A DNA stretch of 50,953 nucleotides from Escherichia phage Lys8385Vzw. Position numbers: made by a program. Of this stretch, positions 30,001 to 33,000 are shown piece after piece. Where the stretch lies: the sequence record MT225100; one strand, given 5' to 3'. The first letter of the stretch is position 1. The number at the start of each line of letters is the position of its first letter.

Positions 30001-33000
30001 CGTTGATAATCATTGCAGCAACACCAGCCTGCCCTGCATCCGTGACCGACACATGCTCAAGAGTTACGGCCATTGCGTGTTTCAGCCCCGCATTCTCCGC
30101 CGCCAGCGCCGAAAACTTCTCGTGTGCCAACTTAACAGCTGCATCAGCCTGCTTAATTGACTCAATCGCTTTCTGTTGGTCTTCGGACAGAGCCAAAATC
30201 TTGGCCTCCGCTTCAGCAAATTTACGCACCAGATATTCAGCATTTGTTTCATTCACTTTCAGATCTCGTGGTACACATTTCCCGCGAAGAAACCCTTCCA
30301 TTTCGAAAACATTCATGCGCATGTGCGTAACTCCGATAACTCGTTAAAGCGCTCCATAAACATCCCGTAGGCATGGCTCGGAGCCAGTGGAATAACTTTG
30401 AACATTTCTGTTGCCGGGATACCTTCCAGTACTGGCCAGAAAGAGCCATCATCAAGCCCGAGATCGCGGCGTTCGGTTGCCAGCATGATGAGATCGGCAT
30501 ATTTCACAGGCGTGCTCATAACCGGGGGTAACCCGTATTTCTCACGGATTACGGCGTCTATTTTTTCTTCCATCCGTTTATAGTCAGGAAGAAGGCGTTT
30601 CAGTGGAGCGGGAATATCCTGGCAATACGCTTCTGTTGCATCATGCATTAACGCTTCAAAAGCAAATTCCTGCGGCACCAGCTGGCTGCAAAGCACCGCA
30701 TGTTGGGCGACACTGTAGAAGTGAGAAAGATGACCGGCAAAGCGGCAGATATTTGAAAGGGAAACCGCGATATCGTTAATCACGATGTCGTCTTTATTTA
30801 TCTTGTCATAATAAAAATGCTTCCCGGAAAAAGTTTTAATAAATGACATTTTGTTCTCCACGCATATGCGCTGCACCGCGCTGAGTTTGGGTAAAAGGAA
30901 GCCATCACCATCCGGTGATTATTGAGTTAATTACGTTTCCATAAATGCCCCCGCAGGGGCATTTGCAGTAATGAAATCAGGCGGTGAAAGTACCAATAAA
31001 GGTTTCTACTTTGCTGTCTTTGAATTTCTCAACAAGCAGATCACGAAATTCGTTAGCCATATCTTCCTGCACCGCTTCCAGCTGAATAATGCGCAGAACC
31101 AGTACAGGACGATCGCCAGTGATAATGCTGAGGCGTAATTTAAACGGACGTTCTTTCAGGCCTTCAAACGGAACGCATTTAAATTCAAATGCCACTGGCA
31201 TAATGTCTTTGGTCTTCGCTTCGACAGACTCCATCAGGGAGCGTTTGCCGCTGAAGTCATTGTCTTCAAAATCAGCGGTCTGGTTTGCTTCAATTGTGAT
31301 TTTACGGACTGCCGCAGCCGCTTTGGTTGCCTGAATGGTGTCACCATTAGCATCAAAGCCCACAAGGTAGTCGGCCCAGTCTTCAATCCATTCTGCCAGT
31401 GACTTCTGGGAGTTACGCTCGCCATTAACAGACAACAGAGCAGAAAACGGTGCTGTCTTTTTCAGTTTGAGGGTGGCGGTGTTATCTGCGTGACCTGGTT
31501 CATCAATAGTACCCAGGTTAAGCACACTGACGGCTCGCATATTATCGGCATCGATAAAGCAGCGGGTGCCTTCATCTGCAAGATCTTTAGAATAACGGGT
31601 AAAGTCATCGATGCTGGCAGTGGAAAGCGCACCACGGAAACGGAAGCGATTTAAATTAAATTTTTCCAGATCATGAATGCGGAAATTCTCAGGCAATGCC
31701 ACAGCATCGGCACCAATATTACTGATAATTTCATTAACACCCTGAGCAGAAATAAGGGCATGGATTTGATTAATTGCGGTTGCGTCTAAGTTCTGAGACA
31801 TAATAAGTCCTCACTATATAAAGATATTCAGTGATGAGATAAATAATCAGTTAATTAAGAACGATATTAATGACCTGCTGCGCGGAGTTTTCCGTCAGGT
31901 TCACCGGCAAGAGTCAGTAATTGTCCCTGGTCTTCCTGCAGAATAGTCAGTCGACCACCGCGATTGACATACATCGGCGTTTCGGTGGTGTCTTCTTCGG
32001 AAATTTTCCCGCGGTTAGTCGGGCGAACATATGAGAGTTTGTGTTTGATTTTCACACGGTTCTCATCAAACGGTTCGATTTCCAGGTTGAGCGAGACCTT
32101 ACCTTTGGTTTTCGTGTTCATCACACCGGAAGCGACTTCACTGAGAACTGCGCCGATTTTGGTTTCAAATACGCCGCCGTCCAGCTCCCCGATAAATGCC
32201 TGCACATCAGTACTGCGTTCGCTAGCCATTTTGCTGCTCCTCATCATATCGACCCTGCAAGGTCGGTTGGTTTCTCCACAAAACAGAGAAGAACACCTGC
32301 GGTGGCAGCCGCCCGGCTGGATTGGGTTATGAGCCCGTCGTCCGGTGATGCTCTTCTCTGTTTTGTAAAAATGACGGTACCAGCCGGAAGCAAGTGTACA
32401 AACTGGTACCGCCAAAGCAGTGGCTGTTGTGGTGACCGGTGCTGATCTCCGGCTTGCGGTTATTTCAGACTCTCACGGGCGTTTAATTGCCCCGCCGAAC
32501 AGCTCTTTTCCGCAATAGCTGCAATGTCTTTCGCGCATCAGCCTGCGCATTCACCACAACTCTAAAAACAAATGTAGGATATCCAACATGTGAGTGTCAA
32601 GAGTTTATGTTGGTTATCCTACATAAAAAGATAGGCTCATAAAAAAACCGGGGATACCCCGGTTTTGCGATAGTGAGGAAGATGTGTCAAAAATCCATTA
32701 TTACTTGTTTGACAAGACCAACTATTCTGCAGTTCTCACCGCATTCAATAGTTTTATAGTTAGGATTTAGTGGGACGAGATACCTGTTCGGCCAGTCCTC
32801 AACAAATTTTTTGAGTGTCGCTTCTTGCCCACCATTGATATGGGCAACAACGATTTTTCCGTTAATACACTCTGTATCAATAATATCTGGCTCTACGATA
32901 ACGATAGAACCTTCTGGTATCGATGGTGAGCCGAGGGGATTGGTCATTGAATCACCACGGACCCGTAGTGCAAATGCCATTTCTGATACAAGGGCGGTAG

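What the first reader, a model, noticed from the sequence alone, without database searches (positions are those of the whole stretch)
31867..32570. No recognisable N-type antiterminator at pL; first leftward gene is a non-basic 121-aa protein
Lambda-type Q and pR'/tR' are present, but the first gene after OL/pL is not Arg-rich and the pL-proximal 150 bp has only weak boxB-like hairpins (for example cgcgcaggctgatgcgcg on the minus strand). Early antitermination may use a different mechanism (RNA-based put-like element or an N analogue I do not recognise). The downstream YfdP/Q/R-like genes resemble the CPS-53 early region.
Basis: inference. Interest (0 to 1): 0.35.

Follow-up and report, generated by a model that had tools for sequence, protein, structure and literature searches.

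The report
Small-RNA gate replaces N at pL
This Shiga-toxin prophage has no N-type or put-type early antiterminator; the stretch right after its leftward early promoter is instead a known 193-base small RNA gene ending in a terminator, so how the early-left genes get past that stop is an open, testable question.

Summary
The first pL gene (31867-32229, minus) is a 120-aa acidic YfdP protein (pI 5.7) with no N-like HMM hit, and no N-like ORF, boxA or HK022-type put RNA occurs in either early leader. The alternative-mechanism idea is not supported as stated.

The "boxB-like" hairpin is helix P2 of a 135-nt cloverleaf-like RNA (32426-32560). Covariation supports that RNA, which recurs about 98% identical in P1-like and T1-like phages beside tRNA genes and in 845 of 5426 complete E. 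coli genomes.

With the hairpin plus U-run that follows (32367-32413), it equals sRNA-17. This 193-nt RNA was mapped by RACE and Northern in an mEp460-like prophage, and deleting it raised yfdP reads from 0.49 to 47. A Salmonella intermediate links the cloverleaf to the STnc100 sRNA family.

I read the leader as pL, then a small RNA and terminator acting as an attenuator, then a conserved 90-nt stem-loop, then yfdPQR. Whether read-through is passive leak or needs an unknown factor cannot be settled here. Lack of N in this phage group is already in the literature.

The parts
32572..32624 (.). OL: two copies of the 18-bp operator palindrome ATGTAGGATATCCAACAT (32572-32589 and 32607-32624). A third copy lies in OR at 33386-33403.
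   Evidence: 6 matches, 0.01 expected; sequence
32571..32600 (-). pL promoter, TTGACA-18-TACATT. The start site is inferred near 32564.
   Evidence: same hexamers as pR (33375-33404)
32426..32560 (-). Element Y: a 135-nt cloverleaf-like RNA. It has closing helix P1 (GUUGUGGUG/CACCACAAC), 5' hairpin P2, a variable central domain and 3' hairpin P4. The P2 and P4 loops (GCUGA/UCAGC) are complementary.
   Evidence: Across 15 diverse copies, 97.9% of cells pair, 10 of 19 pairs show compensatory changes, and 0 of 500 shuffles reach the observed values. The single-sequence MFE fold shows the same helices.
32533..32548 (-).
   Evidence: It is identical in P1-like RCS47, IME207 and Klebsiella phage 6991. 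One compensatory G:C to A:U change is seen in divergent copies.
32367..32413 (-). T: an intrinsic-terminator-like hairpin (arms 32403-32413 and 32373-32383, 19-nt loop, about -18 kcal/mol) followed by AUUUUU (U-run 32367-32371).
   Evidence: fold. The hairpin plus YUUUUUACA tail is conserved with different stem sequences in Salmonella, Serratia and Klebsiella relatives. The 3' RACE end of sRNA-17 falls in the U-run of the homologue.
32368..32560 (-). Homologue of the published 193-nt sRNA-17 (Y + linker AGCCACUGCUUU + T + U-run).
   Evidence: PMC7719688 text and supplementary alignment. 147 nt of the UTI89 reference row were read directly. The window differs at 1 position in Y and 3 in the terminator tail.
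32277..32366 (-). L: a 90-nt long-range stem-loop (about 25-bp outer stem ACAAAACAGAGAAGAGCAUCACC / GGUGUUCUUCUCUGUUUUGU with a branched interior), followed by the conserved motif UGUGGAGAAACC.
   Evidence: whole leader folds at z = -5.8; conserved in Salmonella and Klebsiella, 3 compensatory pairs among 3 sequences
32250..32265 (-). Small hairpin (CGACC-UUGCAG-GGUCG) just 5' of the ribosome-binding site.
   Evidence: a hairpin at the same place, with different sequence, in four other genera
31867..32229 (-). yfdP-like gene: 120 aa, acidic, function unknown. Its ribosome-binding site GAGGAG is at 32237-32242.
30313..31801 (-). yfdQ (DUF2303, 30977-31801) and the yfdR-like HD phosphatase (30313-30876), the next early-left genes.
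32641..32669 (.). G+C-rich hairpin flanked by A and T runs between the cI stop and OL. I read it as the terminator of the cI transcript.
   Evidence: sequence
34602..34678 (+). isrK-family sRNA with its terminator (stem 34656-34673). This is the only convincing intrinsic terminator in the early-right operon and the counterpart of T on that side.
40649..41401 (+). Q-type late antiterminator, the only antiterminator protein found in the window.

Best explanation
The 335-nt pL leader is not a nut or put site.

Anatomy. Its first roughly 197 nt (32368-32564) are a promoter-proximal small-RNA gene. The body is a 135-nt cloverleaf-like RNA, related in scaffold to the prophage sRNA STnc100. A hairpin plus U-run terminator (T) follows. 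Together they are the homologue of sRNA-17.

Mechanism. After CI is lost, pL first makes this small RNA, and most polymerases stop at T. Those that pass T transcribe a conserved 90-nt stem-loop and a small hairpin, and then yfdP, yfdQ, yfdR and on to the excisionase-like gene. T therefore gates the whole early-left operon. The early-right operon has an analogous gate in the IsrK terminator.

Antitermination. No N-like protein, boxA/boxB or HK022-type put RNA is present. Read-through is most likely passive leak from a strong derepressed promoter.

Shown: the anatomy, the conservation, the identity with sRNA-17 and the absence of N and put.
From the literature: the 193-nt RNA ends and the yfdP rise on deletion.
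Inferred: that the deletion effect is in cis, and that read-through is passive.
For: - Promoter and operators are placed.
- Y is a real structured RNA family.
- Y plus T matches sRNA-17 exactly in extent. Y (135) + 12 + 40 + 6 = 193 nt, and the UTI89 reference row in the supplement reads as the reverse complement of window 32368-32560.
- The published coordinates fit the leader sense. There are 392 nt from the sRNA 5' end to the cI stop, as in mEp460 (L002 5781 to 6174), and 567 nt to yfdQ.
- The RACE 3' end lies in the U-run. Deleting sRNA-17 raised yfdP from 0.49 to 47 reads and also raised yfdR.
- A hairpin plus U5 tail is conserved with different stems upstream of yfdP in Salmonella, Serratia and Klebsiella.
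- No other convincing intrinsic terminator lies on the minus strand of the left operon, 24500-31000.
- N is absent by every test made.
- The put model is negative.
- No boxA occurs in either leader.
Against: - T has an unusually large loop (19 nt) and only five U. Its efficiency in this window was not measured, and its tail differs at 3 bases from the homologue that was studied.
- The authors of the sRNA-17 paper read the yfdP effect as regulation in trans. Their deletion construct could itself drive yfdP.
- In RS218 the RNA is made in a lysogen from a promoter other than this window's pL.
- If T were about 99% efficient, passive leak might be too little to express excision functions. That would call for an unknown factor.
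Confidence: 0.6

Rival explanations
1. A dedicated but unrecognised early antitermination system exists. On this view a phage-encoded or host factor acts on the conserved leader elements downstream of or at T (the 90-nt stem-loop and the UGUGGAGAAACC motif) to let polymerase pass T on induction.
For: - T appears to block nearly all transcription into yfdP in a lysogen (0.49 against 47 reads), yet the excisionase-like gene lies downstream of it.
- The T-L-hairpin architecture is conserved across five genera, with covarying stems and an invariant motif.
- Several early proteins have no known function.
Against: - No candidate factor was identified.
- The conserved stem-loop could equally control translation or RNA stability.
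- The right operon has no matching element.
Confidence: 0.2
2. Element Y is itself a put-like, protein-independent antiterminator RNA of a new sequence class. It would modify RNA polymerase in cis.
For: - Y sits right after the promoter, like putL.
- In P1-like and T1-like phages it sits within or ahead of untranslated tRNA arrays, which would benefit from antitermination.
- It is strongly conserved and structured.
Against: - It has no similarity to put.
- The homologous RNA accumulates as a discrete species ending at T, and yfdP is silent although Y is transcribed in cis. So Y does not suppress T.
- Serratia and Klebsiella relatives keep T and L without Y.
- Y is truncated in some prophages of the same immunity type.
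- There is no second copy on the pR side.
Confidence: 0.07
3. Nus-factor (boxA) antitermination of the rRNA-operon type, without N.
For: - In most other contexts Y is directly preceded by AGUGCUCUU(A/U)YC.
- In 85 of about 93 relatives the tail of T reads CGCUCUUUUUACAA, close to the rrn boxA sequence as I recall it.
Against: - In this window both positions are degenerate (UUUGUUUUUAGA and CCGUCAUUUUUACAA), and no boxA is found in either leader.
- Salmonella relatives have GACCUUUUUACA at T, so the conserved feature is the hairpin plus U-run, not boxA.
- The RACE 3' end maps inside the would-be boxA.
- Upstream of Y, the motif is the 3' strand of a helix with its own complement.
Confidence: 0.05
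4. YfdP, or another small early protein, is a highly diverged N analogue.
For: It occupies the position of N as first pL gene, and its function is unknown.
Against: - It is acidic (pI 5.7) and has no Arg-rich N terminus.
- It is predicted to fold as helix 9-39 plus three strands, with pLDDT 75. Lambda N, by established knowledge, is basic and disordered.
- The hairpin that would be its boxB is conserved in P1-like and T1-like phage stretches where no yfdP gene was annotated.
Confidence: 0.03

Closest known systems
sRNA-17 of E. coli K1 RS218 (mEp460-like prophage; Front Microbiol 2020, PMC7719688)
   Same: Same 193-nt unit (Y + linker + hairpin + U-run), about 98% identical. It sits at the same place upstream of yfdP, in the same sense as the early-left operon.
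   Different: - Here it abuts pL/OL of a different immunity region, about 4 nt from the inferred start site. In mEp460 and RS218, 392 nt of further structured leader precede it.
- Three bases of the terminator tail differ.
- The paper treats it as a trans-acting, ArcA-controlled sRNA. It does not treat it as the leader and attenuator of the early-left operon.
STnc100 / PasD prophage sRNAs (Rfam RF02076)
   Same: Same scaffold: a closing helix containing UGGUG/CACCA, GAAU then a 5' hairpin, a variable centre, a 3' hairpin CCGG(G)AG..CACC(C)GG, and then a terminator ending UUUUUACA. A Salmonella phage leader element at the position of Y is hit by both the Y model (34 bits) and the Rfam STnc100 model (37.5 bits).
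   Different: - The Rfam model does not score this window's Y even at E of 10.
- The Y model does not hit the window's own STnc100 at 43274-43487.
- STnc100 lies in the late region after stx, not at pL.
Lambda N / nutL
   Same: Same position in the genome: first thing transcribed from pL, ahead of the recombination and excision genes.
   Different: No basic Arg-rich protein, no boxA, no pentaloop boxB and no matching site on the pR side.
HK022 putL / putR
   Same: A structured RNA immediately downstream of pL in a lambdoid phage that lacks N.
   Different: - The covariance model of put is negative.
- Y is twice as long, with a different fold.
- The homologue does not prevent termination just downstream of itself.
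StxS (pR'-tR' short transcript of Stx phages) and IsrK of Gifsy-1
   Same: A promoter-proximal terminator yields a small RNA, and read-through of the same terminator yields the operon mRNA. An isrK copy plays this part in this window's right operon.
   Different: For StxS the read-through factor is known (Q). Here none is known.

Membership tests
Lambda-type N/nut antitermination | Small, basic protein with an N-terminal Arg-rich motif encoded as the first pL gene | tested here: not met
   The first gene has pI 5.7 and 7 Arg in 120 aa, and is predicted folded. No N family is hit in Pfam, NCBIfam or PHROGs for it or for the other unannotated early ORFs.
Lambda-type N/nut antitermination | boxA (CGCUCUUA-like) followed by a boxB hairpin (5-bp stem, GNRA-like pentaloop) early in both the pL and pR transcripts | tested here: not met
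   No boxA is found in either leader. The hairpin has a 6-nt loop GGCUGA and is part of element Y, which also occurs in P1-like and T1-like phages. No second copy exists in the window.
HK022-type put RNA | Two-stem RNA of about 70 nt matching the put consensus, downstream of pL and of pR | tested here: not met
   Model R1 finds all known put RNAs at 61-100 bits. The best window score is about 6 bits with E about 1, filters off. The same holds in mEp460.
sRNA-17 | Sequence identity over the 193-nt RNA mapped by RACE | tested here: met
   147 nt of the UTI89 reference row were read and match the window, apart from 1 + 3 differences. The remaining 46 nt are inferred from the length and from the other rows.
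sRNA-17 | Location between the cI-like repressor and yfdP, in the yfdP sense | tested here: met
   The published coordinates reproduce the 392-nt and 567-nt distances of the mEp460 map.
sRNA-17 | Accumulates as a discrete RNA of about 193 nt | not testable with these tools
   Shown by RACE and Northern only for RS218, according to the paper.
STnc100 (RF02076) | Reaches the Rfam gathering score (47 bits) | tested here: not met
   No STnc100 match to 32150-32700 even at E of 10.
STnc100 (RF02076) | Shared scaffold shown through intermediate sequences | tested here: inconclusive
   Salmonella element L253:1301-1423 is hit by both models. P1-like element L005:3191-3315 is hit by Rfam STnc100 at 38 bits and by the Y model at 22 bits. 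All of these Rfam hits are below the gathering score.
Intrinsic (Rho-independent) terminator | G+C-rich hairpin directly followed by a U-run, with RNA 3' ends in the U-run | tested here: met
   The hairpin is about -18 kcal/mol and is followed by AUUUUU. It is conserved with changed stems. The 3' end was reported for the homologue only. The loop of 19 nt is atypical.
rRNA-operon-type boxA/Nus antitermination | Intact boxA (GCUCUUUA core) in the leader | tested here: not met
   None in this window's leaders. The boxA-like strings seen in relatives are not conserved in Salmonella.

The most novel reading that the evidence does not exclude
A large class of N-less, put-less lambdoid prophages places an efficient terminator between pL and every early-left gene. 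The class includes Stx1a, Stx2a (WGPS2-type) and Stx2c phages. On this reading they pass the terminator by a still unknown, conditional read-through mechanism that acts on the conserved T / 90-nt stem-loop / UGUGGAGAAACC leader. The cloverleaf modules bounded by GTTGTG...CACAAC (sRNA-17, STnc100 and others) would then be mobile non-coding RNA cassettes shared among lambdoid, P1-like and T1-like phages.
Probability: 0.2. Interest if true: 0.75.

Novelty: new variant of a known kind. Interest (0 to 1): 0.45.

Why it matters
The same early-left leader is carried by Stx1a, Stx2a and Stx2c converting phages. The cloverleaf RNA is present, unannotated, in about one in six complete E. coli genomes.

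The lack of N in this phage group was noted before, with put offered as a guess (PMC12315714). This work removes the put guess. It identifies the leader as a published small RNA plus terminator, and it re-reads the published deletion phenotype as loss of an attenuator. Together these turn [quoted passage not shown] into a defined reporter experiment.

It also links sRNA-17 to the STnc100 family and to unannotated RNA modules next to tRNA genes in P1-like and T1-like phages.

Tried and rejected
- **put hypothesis.** I first thought a region of the mEp460 leader (ACGGCG..CATGCGTCG..AGCG) resembled HK022 putL. The put covariance model rejects it, and rejects the window.
- **pR-side copy of Y.** I suspected one at 34490-34560 (AGTGCTTTAGTCCTTTGTGG). 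It lies inside a DUF4222 coding ORF and the Y model does not hit it.
- **boxA reading of the terminator tail and of the motif before Y.** Rejected for this window.
- **Small peptide ORFs inside Y** (MRRLMRERHCSYCGKELFGGAIKRP and VVNAQADARKTLQLLRKRAVRRGN). They are broken in the variants with other central domains, so they are not coding.
- **In-frame 182-aa extension of yfdP.** It overlaps the covarying stem-loop, and the genes called in other genera start at the ATG.
- **Rfam.** It gave nothing for the leader.
- **Genome-wide pattern scan for Y.** It was swamped by chance matches; only two real new copies were recovered by my pattern filter, with two more found later by the Y model.
- **Covariation in the first Y alignment.** It was nil because all copies had been seeded on the same hairpin. 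It became clear only after the model-based search found diverged copies (with an alignment fitted to the model).
- **RS218 genome record.** It is not in the collection.

Full report
**Source and map**

The window is identical to a Stx1a prophage of E. coli O103 strain RM8385. Its immunity region has these parts:
- a cI-like repressor at 32687-33340 (minus);
- a P22-type cro at 33436-33633;
- a cII-like gene at 33661-34245.

pL (TTGACA-18-TACATT, 32600-32571, minus) and pR (same hexamers, 33375-33404) are each overlapped by an 18-bp palindromic operator. That operator occurs three times, against 0.01 expected by chance.

**The observation**

The first translatable gene after pL is 31867-32229, encoding 120 aa. 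Its pI is 5.7, with 16 basic and 18 acidic residues. It has no Pfam or NCBIfam hit and matches only PHROG 204, of unknown function. Its homologues are called YfdP.

An AlphaFold model (pLDDT 75) shows one long helix, a three-stranded sheet and a disordered tail. It has no informative structural neighbour.

YfdQ (DUF2303) and a YfdR-like phosphatase follow. No other early ORF hits an N family, and the only antiterminator protein is a Q-type one at 40649-41401. PGAP annotates nothing between yfdP and cI.

Lack of N in phages with this yfdP/Q/R left operon has already been remarked for phage LLS. That paper suggested put might be used instead (PMC12315714).

**Test of the put idea**

I aligned seven known put RNAs, located from annotated records and BLAST hits:
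- HK022 putL and putR;
- HK639 putL;
- phiEt88 putL and putR;
- CobraSix putL;
- S9-5 putL.

The covariance model built from them recovers every one of the six put copies present in the loci searched at 61-100 bits. In the window its best score is about 6 bits with E about 1, with all filters off over 29000-37000. The same holds for mEp460. No boxA is present in either early leader. Neither nut nor put is there.

**What the leader is**

The 335-nt leader folds much better than shuffled controls (z = -5.8). BLAST shows that it is modular.

Bases 32426-32560 (minus), called Y here, are 98.5% identical to sequences in three other phage settings:
- the P1-like phage RCS47, just after tRNA-Asn and tRNA-Thr;
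- phage IME207, which I take to be T1-like from its size and gene order, ahead of tRNA-Ser and tRNA-Arg;
- in part, many Klebsiella phages.

The loops of the two hairpins are complementary.

A model built from 11 variants found further diverged copies in Enterobacter, Pectobacterium and a second and third site in RCS47. Across 15 copies:
- 97.9% of cells pair;
- 10 of 19 pairs show compensatory changes;
- none of 500 shuffles reaches these values.

One caveat applies: that alignment was fitted to the model. G:U pairs occur only in the minus-strand sense of the window, which fits an RNA made from pL.

Y occurs in 845 of 5426 complete E. coli genomes, on chromosomes and on plasmids (I take the plasmid copies to be P1-like replicons; not checked). 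No feature is annotated under any of the 12 places listed.

**The terminator and the rest of the leader**

Twelve bases after Y comes a hairpin of about -18 kcal/mol followed by AUUUUU (32367-32413). After it lie a 90-nt long-range stem-loop, the motif UGUGGAGAAACC, a small hairpin, the ribosome-binding site and yfdP.

The same order (hairpin plus YUUUUUACA, long stem-loop, motif, small hairpin) lies upstream of yfdP in Salmonella, Serratia and Klebsiella prophages. The stem sequences differ there, so it is the structures that are kept.

**Link to published work**

A paper on E. coli K1 strain RS218 mapped a 193-nt RNA, sRNA-17, by RACE and Northern. It lies in an mEp460-like prophage and had no Rfam match. 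Deleting it raised yfdP from 0.49 to 47 reads and also raised yfdR (PMC7719688).

The reference row of the supplementary alignment is the reverse complement of Y + linker + hairpin + UCUUUU, which adds up to exactly 193 nt. The published coordinates reproduce the mEp460 map. There are 392 nt from the RNA's 5' end to the repressor gene and 567 nt from its 3' end to yfdQ. So the RNA has the sense of the pL leader, and its 3' end lies in the U-run.

Window 32368-32560 is therefore a copy of sRNA-17, differing at one base in Y and three in the tail.

I read the rise of yfdP and yfdR on deletion as loss of a terminator in cis. The authors read it as regulation in trans. This point is my inference.

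**Relation to STnc100**

In two Salmonella phages the place of Y is taken by an element that both models hit:
- my Y model at 34 bits, E about 7e-7;
- the Rfam STnc100 model at 37.5 bits, E about 1e-5, below the gathering score of 47.

An element in RCS47 is likewise hit by both. Y and STnc100 share the string UGGUGAAU, the placing of both hairpins, and a terminator ending UUUUUACA. A copy of STnc100 itself lies after stx1 in this window.

I take Y to be a relative of the STnc100/PasD class of prophage small RNAs (bioRxiv 10.64898/2026.05.13.724894). The Rfam model does not reach Y directly, so I do not file it as a member.

**Mechanism**

The best-supported reading is this. pL first makes a small RNA that ends at T. 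T gates the early-left operon, and read-through transcripts carry the conserved stem-loop and express yfdPQR and the genes beyond.

No other convincing intrinsic terminator lies in the left operon. In the right operon the only one is that of the isrK small RNA at 34602-34678. Each early operon thus has one small-RNA-plus-terminator gate.

Y itself is unlikely to be a put-like antiterminator, for three reasons:
- its homologue accumulates as an RNA ending at T while yfdP stays silent;
- relatives keep T without Y;
- Y is cut short by recombination in some prophages of the same immunity type.

Whether passage of T after induction is mere leak or needs a factor cannot be decided here. I give about 0.6 to the composite [quoted passage not shown] and about 0.2 to an unknown read-through factor.

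**Verdict**

The finding is real, but the absence of N is already known for this phage group. The added value lies in four points:
- identifying the leader with sRNA-17;
- re-reading the leader as an attenuator;
- linking Y to STnc100;
- showing that such RNA modules are shared with P1-like and T1-like phages.

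Noticed in passing
window 34242-35387: PGAP's 381-aa 'Rha family' ORF is over-extended. It runs over a 59-aa DUF4222 gene (34391-34570), an isrK sRNA (34602-34678) and a C4 antisense RNA (34700-34787) before the true Rha/Ant domain (from about 34842). This looks like a P1-type immI-like module inside the early-right operon.
   Followed up: partly
window 43274-43548: STnc100 (190 bits) lies directly after stx1B, and an AgvB anti-sRNA lies on the opposite strand next to it.
   Followed up: no
L002 5782-6080 (mEp460); L256 1357-1760 (K. variicola); L255 1661-1791 (Serratia); L257 1743-1947 (Kluyvera): Leaders upstream of yfdP are arrays of different structured modules, each bounded by GTTGTG...CACAAC. 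Some modules carry T-arm-like hairpins (GGTTCGAATCC). The combination differs from phage to phage, and mosaic junctions fall at these linkers. None of the modules is in Rfam.
   Followed up: partly
L005 2419-3315 (P1-like RCS47): After tRNA-Asn and tRNA-Thr come at least three Y or STnc100-like modules and tRNA-like 'X' modules on the tRNA strand. The CDSs annotated as plp and upl lie on the opposite strand over the same bases and may be mis-annotations.
   Followed up: no
flank 5' of Y in loci L005-L007, L009, L011, L013, L038, L045, L046, L049, L056: In nearly all contexts other than this window, Y is directly preceded by AGUGCUCUU(A/U)YC. This string resembles boxA, but it pairs with its own complement (GGUAAGAGCA) some 60-90 nt upstream. 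Its meaning is unexplained.
   Followed up: partly
L022, L062, L066, L074, L090, L093, L115: In prophages with the same operators and pL as the window, Y is cut after about 86 nt. It is joined there to a different first gene (MKVQILNN...), so a recombination junction lies inside the RNA.
   Followed up: no
window 34246-34314: Right after the cII-like stop lie two stem-loops (AACGG..CCGUU and CAACAG..CUGUUG). They give the best, but insignificant, put-model score on the pR transcript (6.1 bits, E about 1). The same sequence occurs in mEp460.
   Followed up: partly
window about 25368-26298 (L004 7369-8299): A truncated tRNA-dihydrouridine synthase gene fragment sits at the prophage's left edge, followed by a Panacea-domain gene. 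This suggests integration in dusA. No integrase is annotated at this end.
   Followed up: no
L258 (Stx2a_WGPS2) and Stx2c phages: Clinically relevant Stx2a (WGPS2/1447 type) and Stx2c phages carry the same yfdP leader and likewise show no N gene between repressor and yfdP.
   Followed up: partly
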